Source: Planctomycetaceae bacterium | Lineage (GTDB): Bacteria; Planctomycetota; Planctomycetia; Planctomycetales; Planctomycetaceae | Assembly (NCBI GenBank): GCA_041398725.1 | Contig: JAWKUE010000003.1 | Location: forward strand, 339,263-403,262 | Direction of reading: 5' to 3' | Length of the DNA: 64,000 nt | Shown here: positions 40,173-51,084 of the stretch, one piece after another | Layout: every line of letters begins with the position of its first letter | How positions within the stretch are numbered: position 1 is the first letter of the stretch | Translations under genes and position numbers: made by a program | Notes under the pieces: generated by a model | Told to the model about the DNA's origin: nothing | Database searches by the model: none | Seen by the model: only the letters and a program-made list of their open reading frames with translations

Positions 40173-40724
40173 CTACGCCTCACTTCTGAGCTGCTGCAAT
40201 AAGTCGAAGGTACCGTGTTTAATGGTCCAGAGAGTCATGTATTCCCAATCGAGCTTCGCAAGCTGCACTTGAAGAACTTTTCTTGCGTCGTCGATGTCCT
40301 TTTCGCGATGCCATCTGAGCTTTTGGATGATGACATCTTCCGGGGACGGAACTACCACTGTGACTTTGAGTTCAGGAAGCACAACACTCCGGCGTCGAAG
40401 AAAACGTTCCCGGTGATGTTCGTCACTTCCTAAACGAAACAACACTATGTCAAACTTGGTCGGTACATGCGTGAGTATGTTTCTGATTGTTCCCGTCAGA
40501 GTTTCGAAAGTCATCTGCATGTCGATTCGGAATTCCTCGTCGAGACTCTGTCGAATTCGTTTGAGATCTCCTTCGGAATACGCAATTTCAATATCGGCAT
40601 CTTTGGTGGCGCGAGGATAACTGTAGAAATTGCTCGAAAACGAGCCGACGAGCATGTACGGAATCTCCAACGTCTGGAGTGCCTGCTGAACGCTCGCCAG
40701 CGCTTCGAAACTATTTTTCGACAT
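40173..40724 (-). CDS. Pol-beta-superfamily nucleotidyltransferase-fold protein (toxin-like)
   Basis: It has the minimal NTase motif LVGSFSSNFYSYPRATKDADIEI (G-S..D-x-D). The C-terminal helical part has EDVIIQKLRWHREKDIDDARKVL. Start set at ATG 40724. Confidence 0.6.
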   Translation of the reverse strand: MSKNSFEALASVQQALQTLEIPYMLVGSFSSNFYSYPRATKDADIEIAYSEGDLKRIRQSLDEEFRIDMQMTFETLTGTIRNILTHVPTKFDIVLFRLGSDEHHRERFLRRRSVVLPELKVTVVVPSPEDVIIQKLRWHREKDIDDARKVLQVQLAKLDWEYMTLWTIKHGTFDLLQQLRSEA

Positions 40725-40989
40725 CAGTCTCCGCCATACCGCAATTCCTGTAGAGCCCATGGTCGTCGATTCGACGAACAATCTCTTTGCGTCGTTCGAT
40801 TTCTGCGTCAATTTGCTCCACAGAAAAATCCGGGTTTTCAGCGCGAATTGCCATCGTTAGCCATCGCATACCTTCGTCATACAAATCAGCACCGCCGCGT
40901 AATCGCTCCACATCGGTCAGCGATTGGCTGCGATCAATTTTCGATCTGGCGATCGAGTCTTGTAATGCACGTGTGGTGTGGTCAATCAT
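40711..40989 (-). CDS. Small hypothetical protein, putative partner of the NTase
   Basis: This 92-aa ORF has its stop overlapping the NTase start by 14 nt, an arrangement typical of two-gene toxin-antitoxin-like cassettes. Confidence 0.45.
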   Translation of the reverse strand: MIDHTTRALQDSIARSKIDRSQSLTDVERLRGGADLYDEGMRWLTMAIRAENPDFSVEQIDAEIERRKEIVRRIDDHGLYRNCGMAETDVEK

Positions 40990-41157
40990 TTAAGAGAGCT
41001 GTTGCGTTTCGATTAGTTTTACGAAAGTGTGCCAACAATCTTCCGACATACTTTTCGCGCGTAGAATTTCCAGACAAAAATCTTTGACAGCGCGTTGTGT
41101 TTTGGGAGTATAGCAAAGAACCAACACGTGTTGAACTGCGCACCGCTATGGAACATT

Positions 41158-41346
41158 TCGCACCAGCTTTTGCTGCATTCATTTAAACGCTTGCGGCCTG
41201 AGCCTGGCGTTAACAGCCAGAATACAACGCATTGTCCGCCCGAAGGTGGAGCTACGAACCGAAATCATTGCTTCGTTGTCTGGACATATGAATCGCCGCC
41301 GAGTCTGAATACCATGCAGAAATCCCCTGCGATTTTGTGTCTCTTC
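41158..41346 (+). repeat. 189-bp non-coding repeat, copy A (direct repeat of 42477-42666)
   Basis: It aligns end to end with copy B with scattered substitutions (roughly 85-90 percent identity by eye). The substitutions fall at all codon positions of every frame, which argues against coding. Confidence 0.85.
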
Positions 41347-41634
41347 GTGTTTTTCGTGGCCAGCAAAACTCAAGCGGCGCGTGGCAGGTTTTCCAGCCAC
41401 AAAGACACTCAAGAAGGCACAAAGGGGACGTTGTATTGCTTGACAGGGTGTCGAATTCGAATTGCAACCGTTTAATTCATCGCCCGTAAATCGCGCCCTT
41501 TGGCACAAATTTTGACCGAGTCCCGGAGCGACCAACGCAGTCGACTCAGCAAAGACTATCGTTCCGGAGAAATCAATGCCATTCGTTACAATGTTCGCTA
41601 CAATCGCTCCGGATATTTCGCTTAGGAGCCATCC

Positions 41635-42405
41635 ATGCCGCTACACGACTGGTCTCGGGTTGAATCCGGAGTTTTTCACGATTTCCACACTGTCTGGATT
41701 GCAGAAATCCGGAACCGGCTCAATGCAGGACTATTGCCCGAGAACTACTATGCGTTGGCTGAGCAGCATGCCGGAGAGTACATCGCTGACGTACTCGCGC
41801 TGCACGTCCCGCCGAGAGCGGACGAACAGAGTCGCTTCGACGAATCGAATGACGAATCGGGCGGAGGAACAGCGCTCGCAGAAGCGCCGCCGAAAGTGGC
41901 TCAGCATGAAACGATTGAACTGGATATCGTCGAGATACAGCGATTCCTGTCGATTCGACATCTCAGTTCACATCGAGTGGTCGCGTTGCTGGAGATTGTT
42001 TCGCCGGGAAATAAGAATAATCAGGCTCGCTATGATGCATTCGTACATAAGACTGTCGCTGCGGTTCGTCGCCGAGTGAACGTGTTACTCGTCGATGTGC
42101 ATAAGACGGGCAAATTTGATCAGGATGGAATCAACGCCTGTATTCGAAATATTCTGTCACCACATTCGAAGCCAATTATCGACAAACCCCGTCATTCAAC
42201 ATTGGCCTCCTATTGTCCTGACCCGCCGCGATCGCTGGATATCTACCTTGAACATGTTGCTCCCGATATGCCGCTGCCCGACATGCCGATCTTTCTGAAC
42301 CCGGACCGTTATGTCAACGTACCGCTTGAGGCCACGTATCTGGAAGCATGGAACGGGATGCCCGACTTCTGGAGGAACGTCGTGCTGGGAAAACCGCTAC
42401 CATGA
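41635..42405 (+). CDS. DUF4058-like protein
   Basis: The N-terminus MPLHDWSRVESGVFHDFHTVWIAEIRNRLNAGLLPENYYALAEQ follows the DUF4058 pattern (W..FH..LI..I...L...LP..YYA..E). Length is 256 aa. Confidence 0.6.
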   Translation: MPLHDWSRVESGVFHDFHTVWIAEIRNRLNAGLLPENYYALAEQHAGEYIADVLALHVPPRADEQSRFDESNDESGGGTALAEAPPKVAQHETIELDIVEIQRFLSIRHLSSHRVVALLEIVSPGNKNNQARYDAFVHKTVAAVRRRVNVLLVDVHKTGKFDQDGINACIRNILSPHSKPIIDKPRHSTLASYCPDPPRSLDIYLEHVAPDMPLPDMPIFLNPDRYVNVPLEATYLEAWNGMPDFWRNVVLGKPLP

Positions 42406-42476
42406 ACCGTGCAGATTTCGATTCGGACTCTGCACCACATCCCGTCAAATAAATGAAACCATCGCCAGCGTTTTTG

Positions 42477-42666
42477 TCGCATCAGCTTTTGCTGCACTCA
42501 TTTAAACGCTTGCGGCCTGAGCCGGGCGTTCACAGCCAAAATACAAAGCATTGTCCGTCCAAAGGTGGAACTACGAACCGAAATCCATGCTTCGTTGTCT
42601 GGACATATCAATCGCCGCCGAGTCTGGACACCATGCAGCAATGACCTGCGATTTTGGTGTCTCTTC
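42477..42666 (+). repeat. 190-bp non-coding repeat, copy B
   Basis: See copy A. It has the same orientation and lies 71 nt after the DUF4058 stop. Confidence 0.85.
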
Positions 42667-42695
42667 TGGGGATCCACGGAGCCATGCACCGAAAT

Positions 42696-43223
42696 TTATG
42701 TGCGTCTGGCTGGTCGAAACTTTCGGATGCGGCGGCGTTCTTCGCGGTTCAACGGGATGTCAAAGACGGAGGGGTCGAACTCGGTTGCGTGACGCACCGA
42801 TTTGCCGTGCTTTTCACGCAGCTCACGATAGTGAGATTTCAAACGTTCTGCGTAGGCTTTGTCTCGTACCACCATGTCAGCCCAGAAATCCAGGAGCTCT
42901 GCAGCATAGGATGACTGCGTGTGGAATGGGTCCAGAAAAGGATTGGCAAATTCTTCGTTCGTCATGCGCCAGACTTCGTCCGCGCCAGAATTCCATGTGT
43001 AACTGATGGTGGCGACTTCACGCGGATGCTGATCAGATTCGGACTTTGCGTGCAGGACTTTGATGATCACTCGCTCGCAATTGCAACTCAGGTCCGTGCA
43101 AAAGTATTCCATGAACAGGAACGCTCCCACGGGTATGGTTTCGCCACCTTCTGGAAGTATGGCCGTTCGCAGTTCCGTTTTCGTCTTCCGGGGAAACGCT
43201 TCGAAGTATCCAATGACTGACAT
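42696..43223 (-). CDS. Hypothetical protein
   Basis: This 175-aa ORF starts at ATG 43223 (MSVIGYFEAFPRK..) and has a CTDLSCNCERV motif. I recognise no family. Confidence 0.5.
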   Translation of the reverse strand: MSVIGYFEAFPRKTKTELRTAILPEGGETIPVGAFLFMEYFCTDLSCNCERVIIKVLHAKSESDQHPREVATISYTWNSGADEVWRMTNEEFANPFLDPFHTQSSYAAELLDFWADMVVRDKAYAERLKSHYRELREKHGKSVRHATEFDPSVFDIPLNREERRRIRKFRPARRT

Positions 43224-43239
43224 CTTATTAAAGTCCTTT

Positions 43240-43422
43240 TCAGTAAGCACAAGTAAGCGCCAAATTGCTTTCAATCGTTTCGCCATGGTGCTTTTCGGCG
43301 ATGATGTGATCTACTTGACACCCGTAGAACGTATCCGATTCACTGATACGGCAATACTCGCATCTACCTGCAGCGCGTTCGATCACCAGGCGGCGAAGAT
43401 CAGTCGAAATTTAAGACGTCAT
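43240..43422 (-). pseudogene. HNH endonuclease, disrupted
   Basis: Its ATG overlaps the upstream stop (ATGA), but codon 4 is TAA. The rest reads ISTDLRRLVIERAAGRCEYCRISESDTFYGCQVDHIIAEKHHGETIESNLALTCAY-stop. That is an HNH core (C.YC...DHI....G....NLAL.C) ending just before the expected CN..K. Confidence 0.55.
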
Positions 43423-43652
43423 TCGGAGACAAGTTTCCGAGCTTTGGCCTTTGCCAATCTCATGATGTGCTCAACCTGCAAGAAGTGATCAAGCTCAGAG
43501 CGTTCTTCCACAGTAAGCTCGGAAGCTTTCTCACGGGCGATCAAGTCAGCCACGCGGTCTTTTGATTCCGGTGAGGGGCAAAACAATGCAACGGTCTGCG
43601 GAGTTGTCCCAGATGCAATGAAGTCTACGATGTCAGAGTATGCTCGGCTCAT
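43419..43652 (-). CDS. Small antitoxin-like protein
   Basis: This 77-aa ORF (..LTVEERSELDHFLQVEHIMRLAKAKARKLVSE) resembles small addiction-module-component-type proteins. It is translationally coupled to the HNH remnant. Confidence 0.5.
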   Translation of the reverse strand: MSRAYSDIVDFIASGTTPQTVALFCPSPESKDRVADLIAREKASELTVEERSELDHFLQVEHIMRLAKAKARKLVSE

Positions 43653-43789
43653 GATCGTATTTTACGGTAAATCAGAAGAAAAGCAAACAGCGTCATATCG
43701 AGCGGGATAACGACCGCCATCAGCGGATGGCTGGCGAAAAGTGTCCATGTCAAAACCGAAACGACCGCCATTCCGCTGCACGGAATTGT

Positions 43790-43936
43790 TCAAGTAAGCC
43801 GCTGTCGCGGCGGGGGTTGTCTGTGCTGAATGATACGGCGAAGTTGTAGCGTTTGGCAATGGGGACTGGTCATTCTGTCTGCTGTTGGGGCGTCACTGGA
43901 TGCTCCGTTTGTGGTTTCTGACAGAAAGACTTTCAC
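43790..43936 (-). pseudogene. Truncated paralogue of the Gly-rich protein gene at 46090-46560
   Basis: The GTG-initiated 48-codon ORF VKVFLSETTNGASSDAPTADRMTSPHCQTLQLRR.. shares its first 33 codons or so, and its upstream DNA (43840-43940 vs 46464-46565), with the 156-aa gene, then diverges and stops. Confidence 0.55.
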
Positions 43937-44420
43937 ATGGCCCCTTCTCACAACGACTCACGAAACAATAATGGCGACGATCGCAATCGCAATGCCCGAC
44001 GACGAAAGATTGAACCAGCGCACAAGGAACTGTCGGTCGCGTGGCGATACATTATTGCCTGCGATTCAGGCCCGGCGGGCCGACAAACCCAATGCCGGTG
44101 TGCGTGAGCCACCGGTCAAAAGGAGAAAGTCAGCGTTCAAGGCCCGGAGGGCCGACACATTGACCCGATCATGATGACTAATGGCCTCGCTGCTGCCTGG
44201 ACCTGTATCGCTCGGGGCGATTTGTGAACCTTCCGTCGGCCTCGTGCCGGCCGGAGGTACAACTGGCAGCTACAGAAAGATCCAACAGACTTGGGCTCTC
44301 CGTCCGGTTTACCCGGGCGGAAGCAACGTCGAACGCGTCACAAATCAGTAATTCTGAATCGTGGTGCCTGCGACGAGGTCCTGAACGGCACGAACTCCAA
44401 ACGGAGAAGAGTCGTACATG

Positions 44421-44514
44421 GCGGTAGAAAAATTTTACGGTAAAAAGATTTGACGTTCGGCATCTCTCGCAATTTTTCTACCGCGAAATTTTTCTACCGC
44501 GAAATTTTTCTACC
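44421..44514. promoter_or_regulatory. Iteron-like cluster: three direct 16-bp repeats plus one inverted copy
   Basis: CGCAATTTTTCTACC (44468-44482) and GCGAAATTTTTCTACC (44483-44498 and 44499-44514) are head to tail. The inverted copy GCGGTAGAAAAATTTT is at 44421-44436. Confidence 0.7.
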
Positions 44515-45299
44515 CTGCTCCTCATTCCTGATGGAGAAGTACACTTCATAGCGGCGTCAGAATAGCGTCGCGGGAATTGTGTCGTGGTGCATGGCACCAT
44601 GACCGTAGAGTGCATCGCATTGTGACTATATATGGATCGGTCTACGGTTGTCGTGGTCCGCGTCAGTATAGTTCAGCACAGTGAGGTTTTAGTAACGATC
44701 GACGTTGTATTGCTCATTACCGTCGTCGCTCGCCAGGATCTCACTCCGATTCGTGCGTACATCTTTCGGAAAGCGAACAACGAGAGCGGCTAATGTCCAC
44801 GAGCCGGTGGGCTCCTTCGGGTCAAGGGCTTTCAGCCCTTGTTAGGATTGTCGGGCATACTCGTTCGATCATGACTAGTGTGTCCTGTTTCGAACAAGAA
44901 CCACAGGGTCTCACTGGTTGCCTTGATGACATGATATATAGCGCGAGCGGCGAGCGACTCCGGGTCTTCTTCACAGCTGGCCGTATCGCGGCGAGAGATA
45001 TTGCCTTCCAGCGTTGAACAAACCCTGGGCAGAATCCAACAGATACAAAATTTCGGAGCTCATGTCGTTCACCGCCGGAAGGCCACTCCCGGTCGATTCA
45101 CCCTCACTACCTTTCTGTGTACGCTTCAACGAAAAATTTCGGTTACGTCGCCAGCATTACGGCTTCACGTATCCTTATAGTCTCGCTGCAACACTCGATA
45201 CGGAGCCTCCGGCTAAGAGTTACTCCGGCGGGTGTCACACCCGCTTGTCATCAAACCATTTCCAGTCCGCACGTTCACGGTTTTGTTCTGCCGCATTCA

Positions 45300-45650
45300 T
45301 CATGTGTGGCCGAATCGAACCTGCGTTTCTGTGACAACGACAAAAGCGCCTGCAATCTGATCTTGGTATCCGTCAAGAAGTTTCTCAATCGCGTCGATCT
45401 TTGATACTGCTCGTTCGTCTTGAAGCCTAAGGAAAATCACGCCGTGATGTGGGCGCTTGTCACGATAGACCTTTTCGCCAAAATCCTTATCGTTCGTGAT
45501 TATAATCCAGCGTTCCGAATATGCCTTGTCGAGAATGTCATCATCGGTCGTGGCCCTCGCTTCTTCGTAGACGGAAAAGACCTCGTGGGACTGATCCCGC
45601 AGCCAATGAGCCACGGCGGGACCCGTGCATTCATCGACAAGGAATCGCAT
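45300..45650 (-). CDS. DUF5615-family PIN-like (Mut7-C-type) putative toxin
   Basis: MRFLVDECTGPAVAHWLRDQSHEV..WIIITNDKDFGE matches the DUF5615 pattern. It starts immediately after the DUF433 stop. Confidence 0.7.
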   Translation of the reverse strand: MRFLVDECTGPAVAHWLRDQSHEVFSVYEEARATTDDDILDKAYSERWIIITNDKDFGEKVYRDKRPHHGVIFLRLQDERAVSKIDAIEKLLDGYQDQIAGAFVVVTETQVRFGHT

Positions 45651-45899
45651 TTAGCCCGACTCCGCGACCAGCGGCATGAATGATGTGCTGGACAACGATT
45701 GCGACGCAAAGAGCAGACATGCCTGTATATCTTCTGTGGTCAATCCGTCATATTCGTCGATGATGTTGGCAGCGGATGAACCGTGGGCCAGAAGATTCAG
45801 GATGAATTCGACCGTCAATCGCGTACCCTTGATCACTGGCTTGCCAACCATGACCCCTGGATCACACGTGATTCGTTCGAGCAGTTGTTGATCGTTCAT
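45651..45899 (-). CDS. DUF433-family putative antitoxin
   Basis: ITCDPGVMVGKPVIKGTRLTVEFILNLLAHGSS..IIDEYDGLTTEDIQACLLFA is the typical DUF433 core. Start set at ATG 45899. Confidence 0.7.
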   Translation of the reverse strand: MNDQQLLERITCDPGVMVGKPVIKGTRLTVEFILNLLAHGSSAANIIDEYDGLTTEDIQACLLFASQSLSSTSFMPLVAESG

Positions 45900-46089
45900 G
45901 AATTGCCTCACTCTGATGGTATTCGTTGCGGGACGCGCTGACAAGTCGAGCAACCCGACCCATGCGCGGGTGCCTGGATTGAGTGGCAGAACGTTACGGT
46001 TCAGCGGGCGGCGGCGAACGACGCGCAAGCAGACGGAAAAACTAGCCACCGCCGCTCCATTTCAACCGATGGTTCGTCGTATTCAGTGG

Positions 46090-46560
46090 TTAGTTGAGGA
46101 GTGTTGCAACACCCTCTGCGGTCAATTTGATGCGCAACTTCTTCTTTGAGATTGGGAATTGTTGTCCGTCGACAACCACCGCTCTCCCGTCGTTCTTAAT
46201 TTCCACCGTATGCTTCCCGACACGAAGTGTTGGAACATCATTTACATACTCCAAAGTCGCAGACAAGAAGGAGAACCCGCCACCGCCAAAGCTGAAGCCA
46301 CCGCCACCACCACTCGTCGTCGAAAAGCCATCTTCAACGGCGGATGGCCTGGAAACCACTATTGACCCTCCGCCGCCCCCTCCACCGGAATCTGGTGCAC
46401 GGACGTCATCAAATATGATTGTCGCACGCTCCAGGTCTAGATATTCGAGTTGAATGGTACGTTGAAGTTGTAGCGTTTGGCAATGGGGATTGGTCAATCT
46501 GTCTGTCGGTGGAGCATCACTGGATGCTCCGTTCATCGTTTCTGACAGAAAGAGATTCAC
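46090..46560 (-). CDS. Hypothetical Gly-rich protein
   Basis: This 156-aa ORF has a GTG start and contains G7 and GGGGGFSFGGGGFSF tracts. Coding status is uncertain. Confidence 0.4.
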   Translation of the reverse strand: MNLFLSETMNGASSDAPPTDRLTNPHCQTLQLQRTIQLEYLDLERATIIFDDVRAPDSGGGGGGGSIVVSRPSAVEDGFSTTSGGGGGFSFGGGGFSFLSATLEYVNDVPTLRVGKHTVEIKNDGRAVVVDGQQFPISKKKLRIKLTAEGVATLLN

Positions 46561-46753: not shown

Positions 46754-47394
46754 GTAGCCATCTCGCTCCGCCGAGATGAGCCTACAAGATGGCGTTTGGC
46801 TCAACAGACAAGGGCGGCCTCTCAAACAACATTCATTGACGAATCTATTGACCAGCCGACCGGGCTTACCATATTCACATGTGAGAGTCCGGGCTCATCA
46901 CAGCGGAGTGTGATGGCTACATAAGCAGAGCACTCCGCTCAGAGCTGTCTGATCGGCAAACACCGGATCCAGAGAACTGCCATCGAAATACTCATGCTGA
47001 ATGACGCCCAGGCACTACGTTTGCGAGTGCAATAGACTTGATTTCACCCGAAACGCTTCCTGACACCTTAAAGTGCTCAAAGTAGCCATCTCGCTCCGCC
47101 GAGATGAGCCCACAAGATGGCATTTGGCTCAACAGACAAGGGCGGCCTCTCAAACAACATTCATTGACAAATCTATTGACCAGCCGACCGGGCTTGCCAT
47201 ATTCACATGTGAGAGACCGGGCTCATCACAGCGGAGTGTGATGGCTACATAAGCCAGAGCACTCCGCTCAGAGCTGTCTGATCGGCAAACATCGGATCCA
47301 GAGAACTGCCATTGAAATATTCATGCTGAATGATGCCCAGGCACTACGTTTGCGAGTGCAATAGACTTGATTTCACCCGAAACGCGTCCTGAAG
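46754..47394 (+). repeat. Two tandem copies of a roughly 312-bp unit (period 328 bp), ORF-free
   Basis: 46754-47065 aligns with 47082-47394 with about 10 substitutions, mostly transitions, and one 1-nt indel. No ORF of 60 aa or more exists in any frame between 46747 and 47546. Confidence 0.9.
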
Positions 47395-47456
47395 TTCCAG
47401 GATTCAGTGTTCCCCGGCGAACAACGCCCACATTCTTTTCGGGGGGGACGGCACAG

Positions 47457-47571: not shown

Positions 47572-48333
47572 CTAAAGACATCGCTCACTCAGTCGGAGTC
47601 TCACCAACAGATCGTTCAATGCGGCTGCCCCACTGGGGGTCTCCGGCAACGAGCTTTCCTCAAATGCTCTTTCAAGTTCAGTCCGCAGTCTTGCGTACTC
47701 CCGTTCATGGAACCCAAGGTCGGCTTGTTCAAGAGTTCCTTTCTCGGTGCCACTAACTTTGCGTTCAATCAGTTCGGGAATGTACGGAAGTTTGAAAGTC
47801 TCGTTCAATAAAATAAGGTTCGCTTCAATTTCACCAGCACGCATCAGATGAATTCCGGTGATCAATACTCGGTAGACGTACAGCAGCGGTTTAACTCGTG
47901 GTGGATCTTCTTTTTGGAACAGCTTCCACTGCGTGGCTGCGAAGCCGAGGTAGTGGTGAGCATGATGTTTCGTCAGACAATCGGGAGCAATGGCCTTGAG
48001 TTCTTCATGCTCCGGCGTGGTGTGGACGATCAGCGGCGAAAGTACCTGCTCCATGACGTAACCGTTCTTCTTCAGCATCAGCCCGAAGAACTTCTTAGCG
48101 TCATGGGACACGAGATCGATTTCCATGCCGTCATAGATGCCTGACTTTTCAACGGTTTCACGCCCTTCCTGAAGCCCGACAACATCCTTCAGCGGCAGCA
48201 AATGCACGCCTCGCAGGTCGAAGTCCGAATCCGGCGATGGGAAACCGTACAGGTGCGCTCCGCTGATCGTGGCGAATAGCAATGGGTAGGGATGGTCGTT
48301 GATCTGGTTATACAATCGGGGATCAATGTTCAT
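47572..48333 (-). CDS. Pol-beta-type nucleotidyltransferase (PF10127/RlaP-like), paralogue B
   Basis: It has the motif ATISGAHLYGFPSPDSDFDLRGVHLLP. Its start ATG overlaps the stop of the upstream paralogue (ATGA at 48330-48333). Confidence 0.7.
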   Translation of the reverse strand: MNIDPRLYNQINDHPYPLLFATISGAHLYGFPSPDSDFDLRGVHLLPLKDVVGLQEGRETVEKSGIYDGMEIDLVSHDAKKFFGLMLKKNGYVMEQVLSPLIVHTTPEHEELKAIAPDCLTKHHAHHYLGFAATQWKLFQKEDPPRVKPLLYVYRVLITGIHLMRAGEIEANLILLNETFKLPYIPELIERKVSGTEKGTLEQADLGFHEREYARLRTELERAFEESSLPETPSGAAALNDLLVRLRLSERCL

Positions 48334-49280
48334 GGGAGTTTCTCTGTAAGTGCGGCTCTCCGAGCCTTGAGGAGATACGCATTCGCCTTCTCGTAGTCAG
48401 GTCGTTCCGGGAGTGTGGTTTGTTCAAGTGCTTTATCAAATTCATGGTGCAGGCTGAGTCGCCATTTTTCTGTCTCGTCCCACGGTATGTCACCTCTTTT
48501 AATCGCCAAAAGTTGTTCTCGATGATTGTCAACTCGAACCGGCACGAATCCTTCTCGCAGTACGTTGATGCCTGATATCAACAGGCGAATCAGGTGCATG
48601 ACGTGCTTCCACTTGACCTGTCCCTGATTGCGAATGTCCGCCTGCATCTTTTTGAACTGCGACATGACGTACCCGTTGTACGTCTGGTAGACGAGCCGGG
48701 AGAGGAAGATGTCACGTATTCCAAGTAACTCTTCCGCCAGCGGAGTCGCTTTCTCCACCAACGGAGAATAGAGGCACTCCAGTACATTCGGGTTCGCTTT
48801 CAAAGCCAGCACGAGGAACTTCTGGATTTCCCAATAGCCTTCCTGCGTTTCATAACATTCCAGTTGCTCAGGGACTCCGTAGAGCGACCAGTGCAGGTCG
48901 GCAGGTGGCAAATAGAATCCACGGCGGTCGATGTCAGATGCGTCATCCGCCAGACCGTATGCCTGCGACCCAATGATACACTGGAAGATCACCCGCTCGA
49001 ACATCTCGCTTCCCTTAGCGGTGATGCTGGTGTCGCCGATTTTTCCTTCTTTGAATTTGGCCAGCGTCGTCAAGTCACTGGACTTGATGGCCTCTTCAAC
49101 GCCATCTGGAAAGCGAATCCGATAGGAATGGTCGAGATCGCTTGGTGCCTTAACGACAACCCCCACCGCACCTCGTGGATGCAGTGTGCGACCATTCGGG
49201 CCGACGACATCCCTGAGTGTCACGATCTGCGTGCCAGCCGCAAAGATCAAGTTGGGTTGGTAGTGGACTCGTTTAGTCAT
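48330..49280 (-). CDS. Pol-beta-type nucleotidyltransferase (PF10127/RlaP-like), paralogue A
   Basis: It has the motif CIIGSQAYGLADDASDIDRRGFYLPP and NPNVLECLYSPLV. Start set at ATG 49280, overlapping the HEAT gene stop by 8 nt. Confidence 0.7.
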   Translation of the reverse strand: MTKRVHYQPNLIFAAGTQIVTLRDVVGPNGRTLHPRGAVGVVVKAPSDLDHSYRIRFPDGVEEAIKSSDLTTLAKFKEGKIGDTSITAKGSEMFERVIFQCIIGSQAYGLADDASDIDRRGFYLPPADLHWSLYGVPEQLECYETQEGYWEIQKFLVLALKANPNVLECLYSPLVEKATPLAEELLGIRDIFLSRLVYQTYNGYVMSQFKKMQADIRNQGQVKWKHVMHLIRLLISGINVLREGFVPVRVDNHREQLLAIKRGDIPWDETEKWRLSLHHEFDKALEQTTLPERPDYEKANAYLLKARRAALTEKLP

Positions 49281-49788
49281 TGGGACCGTCTTCGCCTTTT
49301 TCGAGTTGAGACTCCCCAAGCGTCTTCAACGCACACTGGAGAGCCATGACAACATTAGAGTCATCATTGCGATGGCGTTCATACAGAGATTTCAGGTACG
49401 GCAATGCCGAACGGTCGTTGAGATACGCCAGGGCAAAGCCAGCCGCTCGGCGTACCATCATGTCAGGATCATCGACCATTTGAAGGAGATGTTCCGTGGC
49501 TGAGTAATCACCAGAATGCCCAAGAACCCCACACGCCACTTCTTGGACAAAGGAATCTGCGGATGCAAGAAGACTAACCATTTTGGGGACTAAATCTGCG
49601 TCCCGTCGATTCAGCAACGATCTCTCTGCCTTGGCTCCCAGTCCTTCGTGGGACCAGTTCTGAAGAATATCAACCAAGAGATTGAGAGGGATGTCATTTG
49701 CTCTGTCCAAAAGACCTTGCGCAGCACGAAACCTTACAACCCGATTTTGGCTGGCATACATTCGAATCCAATCGTGAATATCAGGCAT
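49273..49788 (-). CDS. HEAT-repeat protein
   Basis: It has repeated helical-hairpin units with the HEAT/PBS-lyase pattern (RFRAAQGLL.., VQEVACGVLGHSGD, MVRRAAGFALAYLND). It is the first gene of a three-gene overlapping operon. Confidence 0.6.
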   Translation of the reverse strand: MPDIHDWIRMYASQNRVVRFRAAQGLLDRANDIPLNLLVDILQNWSHEGLGAKAERSLLNRRDADLVPKMVSLLASADSFVQEVACGVLGHSGDYSATEHLLQMVDDPDMMVRRAAGFALAYLNDRSALPYLKSLYERHRNDDSNVVMALQCALKTLGESQLEKGEDGPND

Positions 49789-49948
49789 CGTGTGACGTAC
49801 CCATCACGTTCGCTCCTTTCAGACAAATCCTCTTCTCGCAGTAATGTAGCAAATAGAAAAGGCCCACACGGCTGCCTCGAACCGTATGGGCCTTCGATTT
49901 CTTTCAGAGACATTCAGTCCCTGAAAGAAGTAATCCCGGTTCACGCCG

Positions 49949-50116
49949 TCAAAAGCAGCCATTCTTGAGACAGCACTTTTTGAAGCGTTTTCCGGAACCG
50001 CAGGGGCAGAGATCGTTTCTGCCGAGCTTTTCCTCAAACACTTTGTCGCCGTGGACAATCCGTTCGCCACGCTTCACCTGCGTTTCGGACGGGAATCCCT
50101 TACGGCGTTTGCTCAT
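49949..50116 (-). CDS. Small SEC-C-motif protein
   Basis: It has the C-terminal metal-binding motif [13 protein letters not shown]. Start set at ATG 50116 (55 aa). Confidence 0.55.
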
Positions 50117-50361
50117 GGTCTCAAAAAAATGACAATTCATCGAAGTTTTCGTGATTCTGGTTTCGCATTGGACACCTCCCGTTTTGATTGAGTTGTCGGG
50201 AGTGGACACCGACTGTCTGGAAAGGTTCACAACAAACTTCTAAGAACTGAACCCATCTTCGATTGGAGTTTCAACATGGGGCTCTTATGCCTGACAAACG
50301 GGTGATAGAATGACGGCCTGTTCTTCATTCGCCTCGTAGAACTCAATTGGGCATCCCCTTC

Positions 50362-51084
50362 ATGAACGTTGTCTCTCATCATCGGAGAACTTTCTTTGCC
50401 GTCGTCTTCGCTGCACTCTTCGTCGCCGTTTCGTTTACGGCAGTTCGTGCCGACGCGGCTGTCTGGAAGTCGATCCTCGGCTGGATTGCAATAGACACGC
50501 TCTTGCTGAGCATCGCATATTTCATCAACTGGCCGGGCGTTTATGGGAAATCGGCAGTCGGTTCAATACGATGGCCAATAGTATTGTTGATGACTCCAGT
50601 CTTGCTATTCGTTCGAATCGTATGGCAGCTCCAAAACATCGCCACACGTACGCCGCTTTACAGCGAGATCGCCCCCGATTTGTTCGTCGGGAGATTGTGT
50701 AACTTCGAATCACTGCCAGAGGGCGTGTCGGTGGTCGTTGATCTCACCGCCGAGTTTCAAACTCCTCACTCGCTCCGATCGAGAGTTCAAACCATCTGCC
50801 TGCCCACACTTGATGGTTGTTCTCCGGACTGGAAGAAATGCCAGCAGGCGTTTGCGTCGATCGGAAACAACCATCATCGCATCTATGCCTGTTGTGCAAA
50901 TGGTCACGGTCGAAGTGTAACGTTCATGGCAGCATGGCTTGGTTACCACGGTAGTTGTCAATCTGCCGCTGGGGCAGTAAAGCTCATTCAAGTCGCTCGC
51001 CCTACAGCGGCACCAAATTCGGATCAGATGCGTTTTCTTACGCAAATCTTTGATACATTGCCTCAAAAGTGCGAGGAAGAATAG
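50362..51084 (+). CDS. Membrane-anchored dual-specificity / tyrosine phosphatase-like protein
   Basis: Three or four N-terminal TM helices precede the Cx5R P-loop in YACCANGHGRSVTF. Confidence 0.6.
   Translation: MNVVSHHRRTFFAVVFAALFVAVSFTAVRADAAVWKSILGWIAIDTLLLSIAYFINWPGVYGKSAVGSIRWPIVLLMTPVLLFVRIVWQLQNIATRTPLYSEIAPDLFVGRLCNFESLPEGVSVVVDLTAEFQTPHSLRSRVQTICLPTLDGCSPDWKKCQQAFASIGNNHHRIYACCANGHGRSVTFMAAWLGYHGSCQSAAGAVKLIQVARPTAAPNSDQMRFLTQIFDTLPQKCEEE

What the first reader, a model, noticed from the sequence alone, without database searches (positions are those of the whole stretch)
47572..49788. Overlapping three-gene operon: HEAT-repeat protein plus two paralogous Pol-beta nucleotidyltransferases
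The three minus-strand genes are translationally coupled, with an 8-nt overlap at 49273-49280 and an ATGA overlap at 48330-48333. The two downstream products both carry the G-[SG]-x-YG...D-x-D nucleotidyltransferase signature (IIGSQAYGLADDASDIDRRG and ISGAHLYGFPSPDSDFDLRG). They otherwise resemble the PF10127/RlaP-type predicted NTases, which comparative-genomics work has linked to RNA repair or conflict systems (from memory).

A HEAT-repeat partner could act as a sensor or scaffold. The operon sits inside the ssrA-adjacent accessory stretch, next to a SEC-C protein and a membrane phosphatase. That context is compatible with a defence or stress module whose function I cannot name.
Basis: partly seen in the sequence, partly recalled or inferred. 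Interest (0 to 1): 0.62.

Follow-up and report, generated by a model that had tools for sequence, protein, structure and literature searches.

The report
RlaP RNA-repair enzyme pair plus HEAT
Three coupled genes encode a small HEAT-repeat adaptor and two paralogous RlaP enzymes of the kind that add nucleotides to broken RNA ends; related bacteria carry the same trio inside the Pnkp/Hen1 RNA-repair operon, but here the ligase and methyltransferase genes are missing.

Summary
Three intact minus-strand genes overlap by 8 nt and by ATGA. The first is a HEAT-repeat protein; the other two are PF10127 (RlaP) nucleotidyltransferases, both with conserved catalytic motifs.

It is not an unnamed defence module. 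The long (316 aa) and short (253 aa) RlaP proteins form an orthologous pair found across Planctomycetota. The two genes are adjacent in 79 of 83 loci examined. In 27 of 48 loci with enough flanking DNA, the pair lies beside known RNA-repair genes (Hen1, Pnkp, Pnkp1/Rnl, Thg1-like).

In other lineages the two paralogues are fused into one protein in the same order, which argues that they act as one unit. The long form has an extra N-terminal domain that is probably Tudor-like.

The HEAT protein belongs to a tiny family (27 other clusters). Five other genomes carry it as Hen1–HEAT–RlaP–RlaP–Pnkp.

The window keeps only the middle three genes. No Pnkp, Hen1 or RNA ligase occurs anywhere in its 64 kb. 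I found no support for an ssrA island, and PADLOC gives no hit for either enzyme.

Most likely function: a two-subunit enzyme that rebuilds RNA 3' ends. This is a new variant of a known kind and of moderate interest.

The parts
49273..49788 (-). HEAT-repeat protein, 171 aa: ten helices, about five HEAT repeats. Likely adaptor or scaffold.
   Evidence: Pfam HEAT_2 E 4.9e-15. AF2 pLDDT 94.6, all-helical. Best PDB matches are alphaRep HEAT-like binder scaffolds, TM about 0.72. The family has only 27 other clusters. Five other contexts read Hen1-HEAT-RlaPa-RlaPb-(x)-Pnkp.
48330..49280 (-). RlaPa: long-form RlaP nucleotidyltransferase, 316 aa. NTase plus helical domain at aa 96-310, preceded by an extra N-terminal domain.
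   Evidence: Pfam RlaP E 1.8e-42 over aa 96-304. Orthologues are 66-93% identical in Planctomycetota, and 449 matching stretches were confirmed in the one-genome-per-species collection. AF2 gives pLDDT 85-97 for aa 91-310.
48996..49280 (-). N-terminal domain of RlaPa (aa 1-95), probably a Tudor/SH3-like beta-barrel. RlaPb lacks it.
   Evidence: Residues are conserved across orthologues (G16, P35, G37, G40, D48, Y53, R54, F57, D59, G60, E62). A profile of the domain hits only Tudor domains: LBR 2l8d E 3.5e-4 and KDM4A/B/C 0.13-1.4. Pfam Tudor_5 scores E 0.034. AF2 confidence is low here.
48927..48971 (-). RlaPa catalytic motif, G104-S105 ... D116-x-D118.
   Evidence: G104, S105, D116 and D118 are at least 97% conserved in 70 orthologues. 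E141, E147 and E151 are conserved acidic residues on the next two strands.
47572..48333 (-). RlaPb: short-form RlaP nucleotidyltransferase, 253 aa.
   Evidence: Pfam RlaP E 2.5e-53, full length. The best 120 homologues are 78-93% identical. It sits directly downstream of RlaPa in 79 of 83 loci.
48217..48261 (-). RlaPb catalytic motif, G25-A26 ... D37-x-D39.
   Evidence: G25, D37 and D39 are at least 97% conserved in 68 orthologues. E62, E71, D73 and D78 are conserved acidic residues.
49273..49280 (-). 8-nt overlap between the HEAT stop and the RlaPa start (ATGACTAA).
   Evidence: Read directly. Overlapping or abutting HEAT/RlaPa junctions also occur in L085, L089 and L090.
48330..48333 (-). 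ATGA overlap between the RlaPa stop and the RlaPb start.
   Evidence: Read directly. The 4-nt overlap is kept in 35 of 60 loci: 29 ATGA, 4 GTGA, 2 TTGA.
49858..49895 (-). Terminator-like hairpin (16-bp stem plus T-rich tail) between the SEC-C gene and the HEAT gene. Probable upstream boundary of the three-gene unit.
   Evidence: Consensus scan only. It coincides with a sub-threshold Rfam ctRNA match.
49949..50230 (-). Small SEC-C-motif protein, 93 aa. A recurrent upstream neighbour of the RlaP/Hen1 cluster, probably not co-transcribed here.
   Evidence: Pfam SEC-C E 2.6e-9. A homologue lies within 10 kb of the RlaP pair in 23 of 83 loci, usually just upstream of Hen1.

Best explanation
The two enzymes are the long (RlaPa) and short (RlaPb) members of a conserved pair of RlaP nucleotidyltransferases. 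[quoted passage not shown] That would restore the length of the RNA so that it can be resealed. The small HEAT-repeat protein is an accessory adaptor that, in relatives, belongs to the Hen1/Pnkp RNA-repair operon.

In this genome the three genes form a stand-alone unit. The healing and sealing enzyme (Pnkp) and the methyltransferase (Hen1) are not next to it. They must either be encoded elsewhere, or the pair works with another ligase or on its own.

Shown here: gene structure and coupling, family membership, conserved catalytic residues in both paralogues, pair conservation, association with repair genes in orthologous loci, and natural fusions.

Taken from the literature: the 3'-end nucleotide-adding activity, measured on distant Pseudomonas RlaPs in a preprint.

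Inferred: the heteromer, the in vivo substrate and the adaptor role of HEAT.
For: Family and active sites:
- Both proteins score far above the Pfam RlaP threshold.
- G-[SA]...D-x-D and further acidic residues are at least 95% conserved in 68-70 orthologues of each paralogue.
- The AF2 model of RlaPa shows an NTase domain plus a helical domain at high confidence.

Pair behaviour:
- RlaPb follows RlaPa on the same strand in 79 of 83 loci. Two of the four exceptions are contig ends.
- The 4-nt overlap is kept in 35 of 60 loci.
- Six cluster representatives are single polypeptides with an RlaPa-like half followed by an RlaPb-like half. Both halves carry intact motifs and two Pfam RlaP stretches.
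- Three of these clusters are seen in several independent assemblies.

RNA-repair link:
- Polystyrenella longa and two MAGs have the pair inside Hen1...Pnkp operons.
- 27 of 48 well-flanked loci carry Hen1, Pnkp, RNA ligase PF09414, an HD-kinase or Thg1-like within 8 kb.
- HEAT homologues lie between Hen1 and RlaPa in L085, L089, L090, L076 and L035.

Biochemistry of the family:
- PfRlaP and PaRlaP add 1-2 NMP to RNA 3'-OH ends, prefer Mn2+, and partly restore aminoacylation of a repaired tRNA that lacked one nucleotide (bioRxiv 10.64898/2025.12.29.696909).

Expression:
- Exact metatranscriptome contigs lie inside both RlaP genes. This is weak evidence.
Against: - No Pnkp, Hen1, RNA ligase, Thg1 or HD-kinase is encoded anywhere in the 64-kb window. 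No remnants flank the triad.
- 21 of 48 well-flanked loci are likewise stand-alone, so a ligase-independent role is possible.
- The measured activity comes from single-copy Pseudomonas RlaPs in RtcB operons, reported in a preprint. I could not align them to these proteins, and their in vivo role is itself unproven.
- The heteromer is inferred.
- Which acidic residue is the third catalytic carboxylate is not settled.
- The HEAT protein is rare and also occurs without RlaP, so its role with the pair is uncertain.
Confidence: 0.65

Rival explanations
1. Housekeeping RNA 3'-end enzyme. The pair is a lineage-wide planctomycete enzyme that tails or mends RNA 3' ends (for example tRNA or rRNA ends, or tagging for decay) without any dedicated ligase. 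Its frequent position next to repair genes would then reflect a shared substrate and not an obligate pathway.
For: Conservation is very high across the phylum: 66-93% identity, with 449 matching stretches confirmed in the species-genome collection. 21 of 48 well-flanked loci, and the window itself, have no repair partner nearby. GC content around the triad is unremarkable and no mobility genes flank it.
Against: More than half of well-flanked loci place the pair inside or beside Hen1/Pnkp or Pnkp1-Rnl clusters, often with overlapping genes. The neighbourhood varies in a cassette-like way, with ARH, SIR2, PTH2, R2K and Thg1. That is typical of conflict-response systems rather than housekeeping operons.
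Confidence: 0.15
2. Decaying remnant. The triad is what is left of a Hen1-HEAT-RlaP-RlaP-Pnkp operon after both end genes were lost, and it no longer has a function.
For: Homology to the five-gene operons stops exactly at the edges of the triad, about 47620-49640. Multi-copy repeat elements occupy the place where Pnkp lies in relatives. One metagenome contig shows a 1756-bp deletion within the triad.
Against: All three ORFs are intact, keep their coupling and keep every conserved catalytic residue. Stand-alone intact pairs are common. Transcript contigs match both RlaP genes.
Confidence: 0.1
3. Anti-phage defence or toxin module. The NTases would make a nucleotide signal (as Hailong HalB or CD-NTases do) or modify tRNA as toxins (as MenT/AbiEii do), with HEAT acting as a sensor.
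For: The best solved structural neighbours of the RlaPa model are Hailong HalB chains, E 2.5e-4. The surrounding stretch holds a DUF433/PIN-like pair and other small accessory genes.
Against: The structural match is weak and generic: TM 0.31-0.45, 12-14% identity, and equal to aminoglycoside NTases. PADLOC gives no hit for either NTase. No effector or antitoxin-like partner is co-conserved. The recurrent neighbours are RNA-healing and RNA-sealing enzymes. Phage relatives are at most 31% identical.
Confidence: 0.07

Closest known systems
PfRlaP / PaRlaP, the Pseudomonas RlaP enzymes of the RtcB-RtcA operon (bioRxiv 10.64898/2025.12.29.696909)
   Same: Same Pfam family, PF10127. Same two-domain build (NTase plus C-terminal helical domain) and the same conserved aspartates. 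The same predicted job: adding 1-2 nucleotides to RNA 3'-OH ends before ligation.
   Different: Those are single-copy genes next to the 3'-phosphate ligase RtcB. Here there are two diverged paralogues (about 27% identical) that always travel together. One has an extra Tudor-like domain, and in relatives the pair is linked to 5'-phosphate ligase systems (Pnkp, Rnl). No sequence or structure of PfRlaP was available to compare; the PDB copy holds none.
Bacterial Pnkp/Hen1 and Pnkp1-Rnl-Hen1 RNA-repair systems (PMC4411300)
   Same: In orthologous loci the RlaP pair and the HEAT protein are embedded between Hen1 and Pnkp, or lie beside Rnl plus the HD-kinase. Genes often overlap.
   Different: The window has neither Pnkp, Hen1 nor Rnl. 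As far as I could read, the described systems do not include RlaP pairs or a HEAT protein as components.
Phage RlaP-family NTases (T4 NrdC.11, jumbo-phage RlaPs; PMC7824862)
   Same: Same family, with the same predicted role of restoring nucleotides lost from cleaved tRNA before ligation.
   Different: Phage relatives are at most 31% identical to RlaPb. They are single genes and have no HEAT partner.
Kanamycin nucleotidyltransferase ANT(4') and Hailong HalB (structural neighbours)
   Same: An NTase domain followed by a helical domain. From my own knowledge, both work as oligomers, and ANT(4') builds its active sites across the dimer interface. That makes a paired RlaP enzyme plausible.
   Different: The likeness is remote: TM 0.3-0.45, 12-14% identity. 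Substrates and gene contexts differ, and there is no HalA-type effector or resistance context here.

Membership tests
RlaP (Pfam PF10127) | The sequence matches the family profile above the curated threshold. | tested here: met
   146.2 and 181.8 bits against a 23-bit cut-off.
RlaP (Pfam PF10127) | Pol-beta NTase catalytic residues: G-[SG/A], D-x-D and a third carboxylate. | tested here: met
   G104-S105 and D116/D118 in RlaPa, and G25 and D37/D39 in RlaPb, are at least 97% conserved. Conserved acidic residues follow on the next strands (E141/E147/E151; E62/E71/D73). Which of these is the third ligand is not settled.
RlaP (Pfam PF10127) | N-terminal NTase domain plus C-terminal helical domain forming a cleft. 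| tested here: met
   AF2 model of RlaPa, aa 91-310, pLDDT 85-97. RlaPb was not modelled.
RlaP (Pfam PF10127) | The gene lies next to an RNA ligase gene, the origin of the name 'RNA ligase-associating'. | tested here: not met
   No ligase in the 64-kb window. The feature is met in orthologous loci: 27 of 48 have a repair partner within 8 kb.
RlaP (Pfam PF10127) | Adds 1-2 NMP to the 3'-OH of RNA. | not testable with these tools
   Needs an enzyme assay. Known only for PfRlaP and PaRlaP.
Pnkp/Hen1 RNA-repair operon | Pnkp (kinase-phosphatase-ligase) is present. | tested here: not met
   tblastn with three Pnkp proteins finds nothing in the window. A sensitive search of the flanks finds only noise.
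Pnkp/Hen1 RNA-repair operon | The Hen1 methyltransferase is present. | tested here: not met
   As for Pnkp. It could lie elsewhere in the genome, which could not be searched.
Known anti-phage defence systems (PADLOC 2.0) | The proteins match a defence-system model. | tested here: not met
   No hit for either NTase. HEAT gives only a generic HEAT/ARM match.
Hailong (HalB NTase plus HalA effector) | HalB-like NTase with an adjacent membrane effector. | tested here: not met
   The fold match is weak, TM 0.31-0.45. The co-conserved neighbours are repair enzymes, not a channel.
ssrA-integrated genomic island | A direct repeat of the tmRNA 3' end and an integrase bounding the island. | tested here: not met
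   No second copy of the 21- or 30-nt tmRNA 3' end in the window. None of the larger flanking ORFs scanned against Pfam is an integrase.
HEAT-repeat proteins (PF13646) | Profile match and an alpha-solenoid fold. | tested here: met
   56 bits against a 27.7-bit cut-off. Ten-helix solenoid at pLDDT 94.6, TM about 0.72 to alphaRep.
Tudor/SH3-like barrel (RlaPa N-terminus) | Profile match to Tudor domains and a beta-barrel fold. | tested here: inconclusive
   The profile hits only Tudor domains, but weakly (best E 3.5e-4). Pfam is sub-threshold. AF2 confidence is low for aa 1-90.

The most novel reading that the evidence does not exclude
RlaPa and RlaPb form an obligate two-subunit enzyme, a single chain where the genes are fused, with two non-equivalent active sites and a Tudor-like targeting domain. 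It rebuilds trimmed RNA 3' ends. In about half of planctomycete genomes, this one included, it works without a dedicated neighbouring ligase. A small family of HEAT adaptors plugs it into different partners. That would make it a distinct, phylum-wide form of RNA end repair and not just an accessory of Pnkp/Hen1.
Probability: 0.3. Interest if true: 0.6.

Novelty: new variant of a known kind. Interest (0 to 1): 0.42.

Why it matters
RlaP enzymes were predicted in 2016 to restore nucleotides lost from RNAs cut by ribotoxins. They have only just been assayed, as single proteins from Pseudomonas.

This locus, with its relatives, shows a second form of the family:
- two diverged paralogues that stay together across a whole phylum and are fused elsewhere;
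- an extra putative Tudor-like domain on one of them;
- a dedicated small HEAT partner in some genomes.

If the pair is a heteromer with two different active sites, it could explain how the number or identity of added nucleotides is controlled. The published work leaves that question open. The stand-alone version here also asks whether end rebuilding can be useful without a linked ligase.

The practical value is modest. It gives clear, cheap experiments for groups that already work on bacterial RNA repair.

Tried and rejected
- **Pnkp/Hen1 in the window.** tblastn with proteins from three, then six, related operons found nothing, and a sensitive search of the flanks gave only noise.
- **Other repair families in the window.** None found.
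- **ssrA island.** No att-like repeat of the tmRNA 3' end and no integrase.
- **Defence and NCBI family libraries.** PADLOC and NCBIfam gave no hit for the NTases.
- **Solved structures by sequence.** None for either NTase; the only hits were spurious PPR-repeat matches.
- **Downstream repeat as an operon RNA.** I asked whether the 328-nt tandem repeat could be, for example, Y-RNA-like. Rfam found nothing. It folds equally well on both strands. It is multi-copy in metagenomes and absent from all related loci. I rejected it as a MITE-like element.
- **L035 'fusion'.** The 501-aa ORF is an out-of-frame artefact. P0407 and P0285 were discounted as frameshifted.
- **Source literature.** The Burroughs & Aravind 2016 paper that named RlaP is not held in the library. 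I could not check whether it already noted RlaP pairs. The preprint's supplement is not held either.
- **The window's own contig.** The look-up by the HEAT protein failed.
Full report
**1. The observation**

- 49273-49788: 171 aa.
- 48330-49280: 316 aa from the ATG at 49280.
- 47572-48333: 253 aa.

The sequence shows the 8-nt overlap ATGACTAA at 49273-49280 and the ATGA overlap at 48330-48333.

Pfam assigns the first protein to HEAT_2 (E 4.9e-15). It assigns both others to RlaP PF10127 (E 1.8e-42 over aa 96-304, and E 2.5e-53 over the full length). PADLOC and NCBIfam have nothing for the two NTases.

A 16-bp terminator-like hairpin at 49895-49858 separates the upstream SEC-C gene from the HEAT gene. 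The three genes therefore look like a transcription unit of their own (a consensus scan only).

**2. The two NTases are a conserved long/short pair**

The two proteins are only about 27% identical to each other. Each has close orthologues throughout Planctomycetota:
- The best 120 database clusters are 78-93% identical for the short form and 75-93% for the long form.
- A scan of one genome per species confirmed 449 stretches that encode a relative of the long form. The best 80 are nearly all labelled Planctomycetota.

In those loci plus three others, the short gene lies directly downstream of the long gene on the same strand in 79 of 83 cases. Two of the four exceptions are contig ends. The 4-nt start/stop overlap is kept in 35 of 60 loci where both genes are complete. 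In the rest, a short gap or one small extra gene lies between them.

Both paralogues keep the nucleotidyltransferase signature. G104-S105 and D116-x-D118 in the long form, and G25 and D37-x-D39 in the short form, are at least 97% conserved. Both have conserved acidic residues on the following strands. Neither looks like a dead subunit.

**3. Natural fusions**

An exhaustive search of 1.84 billion cluster representatives found 6385 relatives of the long form at E <= 1e-3.

Six representatives are single polypeptides of 483-687 aa: P0283, P0284, P0331, P0380, P0389 and P0403. In each, the first half is most similar to RlaPa (33-52% identity) and the second half to RlaPb (34-58%). Each half carries the G-[SA]...D-x-D motif, and Pfam reports two RlaP stretches per protein.

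Three of these clusters are seen in several independent assemblies, so they are not one-off sequencing errors. The order of the halves equals the gene order in the window. This is classical Rosetta-stone evidence that the two proteins act as one unit.

Two further candidates (P0407, P0285) contain frameshift-like segments and were discounted. An apparent fusion in L035 is an out-of-frame ORF.

**4. Structure**

An AlphaFold2 model of RlaPa has mean pLDDT 79. The NTase and helical domains (aa 91-310) score 85-97, and the first 90 residues are poorly modelled.

Its best solved structural neighbours are Hailong HalB and kanamycin nucleotidyltransferase ANT(4'). The likeness is remote: TM 0.3-0.45 and 12-14% identity. 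No RlaP structure is in the PDB copy.

The extra N-terminal 95 residues of RlaPa are well conserved. A profile of them hits only Tudor domains: lamin-B receptor E 3.5e-4 and KDM4A/B/C 0.13-1.4. Pfam Tudor_5 is sub-threshold. A Tudor/SH3-like barrel is likely but not proven.

**5. Genomic context in relatives**

In Polystyrenella longa and two MAGs, the pair lies inside a Hen1 ... Pnkp operon.

I clustered all neighbouring ORFs of 81 loci and annotated the recurrent families with Pfam. They are:
- Hen1 and Pnkp;
- an RNA ligase (PF09414) together with an HD+AAA_33 kinase, which is the Pnkp1-Rnl-Hen1 type of repair complex (PMC4411300);
- Thg1-like 3'-5' polymerases;
- an AAA_33 kinase and a NIF phosphatase;
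- ADP-ribosylglycohydrolase, SIR2, PTH2 and an R2K ATP-grasp;
- a second, unrelated HEAT family;
- several families without annotation.

Of 48 loci with at least 5 kb on both sides, 27 have at least one core repair partner within 8 kb. The other 21 are stand-alone pairs.

The family's link to RNA ligases and its predicted role are in the literature (PMC7824862, PMC6514570). That role is to restore nucleotides removed from cleaved tRNA before sealing.

A 2025 preprint shows that two Pseudomonas RlaPs add one or two NMPs to RNA 3'-OH ends. They prefer Mn2+ and act on RNA, not DNA or protein. They partly rescue aminoacylation of a repaired tRNA that had lost one nucleotide (10.64898/2025.12.29.696909). 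That study does not mention pairs or dimers.

**6. The HEAT protein**

The HEAT family is tiny: 27 other clusters among 5.8 billion proteins, the nearest at 65% identity. I examined nine other contexts:
- Five read Hen1-HEAT-RlaPa-RlaPb-(x)-Pnkp: L085, L089, L090, L076 and L035.
- Two are repair clusters without any RlaP: L087 (Thg1-ARH-Hen1-...-HEAT-Pnkp) and L091 (kinase-Thg1-HEAT).
- Two are unrelated or unclear.

So the triad is co-conserved, but only in a few genomes, and there it is always flanked by Hen1 and Pnkp. The HEAT protein is better described as an accessory of the Hen1/Pnkp repair cluster than as a specific partner of RlaP.

Its model is very confident: pLDDT 94.6 and ten helices. 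It resembles the alphaRep family of HEAT-like protein binders at TM about 0.72. That fits an adaptor and gives no hint of catalysis.

It shares only generic repeat similarity with the second HEAT family, which lies downstream of RlaPb in other loci.

**7. What is special in the window**

Only the middle of the five-gene arrangement is present.
- No Pnkp, Hen1, RNA ligase, Thg1 or HD-kinase is detectable anywhere in the 64 kb.
- DNA homology to the five-gene operons covers only about 47620-49640.
- The flanks hold no credible remnants.

Upstream lies the SEC-C gene, which in relatives sits just upstream of Hen1 (23 of 83 loci). Downstream, where Pnkp lies in relatives, there is a 328-nt tandem duplication with hairpin-forming inverted repeats. 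It is multi-copy in metagenomes and absent from all related loci. I take it to be a MITE-like element.

The locus occurs in wastewater and bioreactor metagenomes. Exact metatranscriptome contigs lie in both RlaP genes, which is weak evidence of transcription.

The 'ssrA island' idea finds no support. There is no repeat of the tmRNA 3' end and no integrase, and GC content is unremarkable.

**8. Interpretation**

The best-supported reading is a two-subunit RlaP enzyme that rebuilds RNA 3' ends, with a HEAT adaptor. It derives from, or is interchangeable with, the Hen1/Pnkp repair operon and stands alone here.

Rivals, in order of weight:
- a ligase-independent housekeeping role;
- a functionless remnant;
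- a defence-signalling or toxin NTase.

The heteromer, the substrate and the HEAT role are inferences.

The RlaP family and its repair context are known. The obligate long/short pair, its fusions, the Tudor-like domain and the HEAT accessory family are, as far as I could check, not described. I could not read the 2016 paper that named the family.

Noticed in passing
window 46754-47409: Tandem duplication of a 328-nt unit (97% identical). Each unit holds 30-nt inverted arms about 107 nt apart that fold into a long stem (z about -5 on both strands). It has 3-5x higher depth and many divergent continuations in metagenome contigs, and it is absent from 88 related loci. Probably a multi-copy MITE-like element sitting where Pnkp lies in relatives.
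   Followed up: partly
window 44948-45237 (-): Rfam group II intron D1-D4 match (RF02005, 79.8 bits, E 1.9e-21). No domain V/VI match and no reverse-transcriptase ORF within 41000-45400. Likely an intron fragment.
   Followed up: partly
window 45300-46049 (-): Adjacent DUF433 (132 aa) and DUF5615/PIN-like (116 aa) genes that abut end to start. This is a toxin-antitoxin-like pair.
   Followed up: no
window 46090-46560 (-): A 156-aa ORF with long glycine runs (GGGGGGG, GGGGGFSFGGGGF) and no Pfam match. A metatranscriptome contig overlaps it.
   Followed up: no
window 50347-51084 (+); L029 about 5010: Membrane-anchored dual-specificity-type phosphatase, with sub-threshold Pfam DSPc-type matches. 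A 55%-identical homologue lies directly after the RlaP pair in one Schlesneria MAG (L029). This may be coincidence or a loose link.
   Followed up: partly
window 49949-50230 (-): Small SEC-C-motif protein. Homologues lie within 10 kb of the RlaP pair in 23 of 83 loci, typically just upstream of Hen1. Function unknown.
   Followed up: partly
window 47906 to 49663: One metagenome contig (run X3, depth 6) joins these two points. It skips 1756 bp (part of RlaPb, all of RlaPa, most of HEAT) and is out of frame. Either a rare deletion variant or an assembly artefact.
   Followed up: no
L005, L007, L010, L019 (gene just upstream of RlaPa); L010, L032, L061, L068: Two unannotated protein families recur next to the pair. 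F18 (about 322 aa) occupies the slot that HEAT or Hen1 occupies elsewhere. F21 (about 438 aa) lies downstream of RlaPb in three loci and upstream of RlaPa in L061. Neither has a Pfam match.
   Followed up: partly
window 40173-40811 (-) and 41635-42405 (+): A DUF6036 nucleotidyltransferase-like protein and a DUF4058 protein lie in a stretch of small, poorly annotated genes with slightly lower GC (0.48-0.49).
   Followed up: no
window 49846-49935 (-): Sub-threshold Rfam match to ctRNA_pGA1 (27.5 bits, gathering score 45). It coincides with the terminator-like hairpin between SEC-C and HEAT and is probably just the hairpin.
   Followed up: no
protein P0290 (659 aa, from the representative search): An RlaPa-type protein, with its Tudor-like domain, preceded by about 340 residues that look to me (no search run) like an NAD-binding dehydrogenase. 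Either an unusual fusion or a gene-calling artefact.
   Followed up: no
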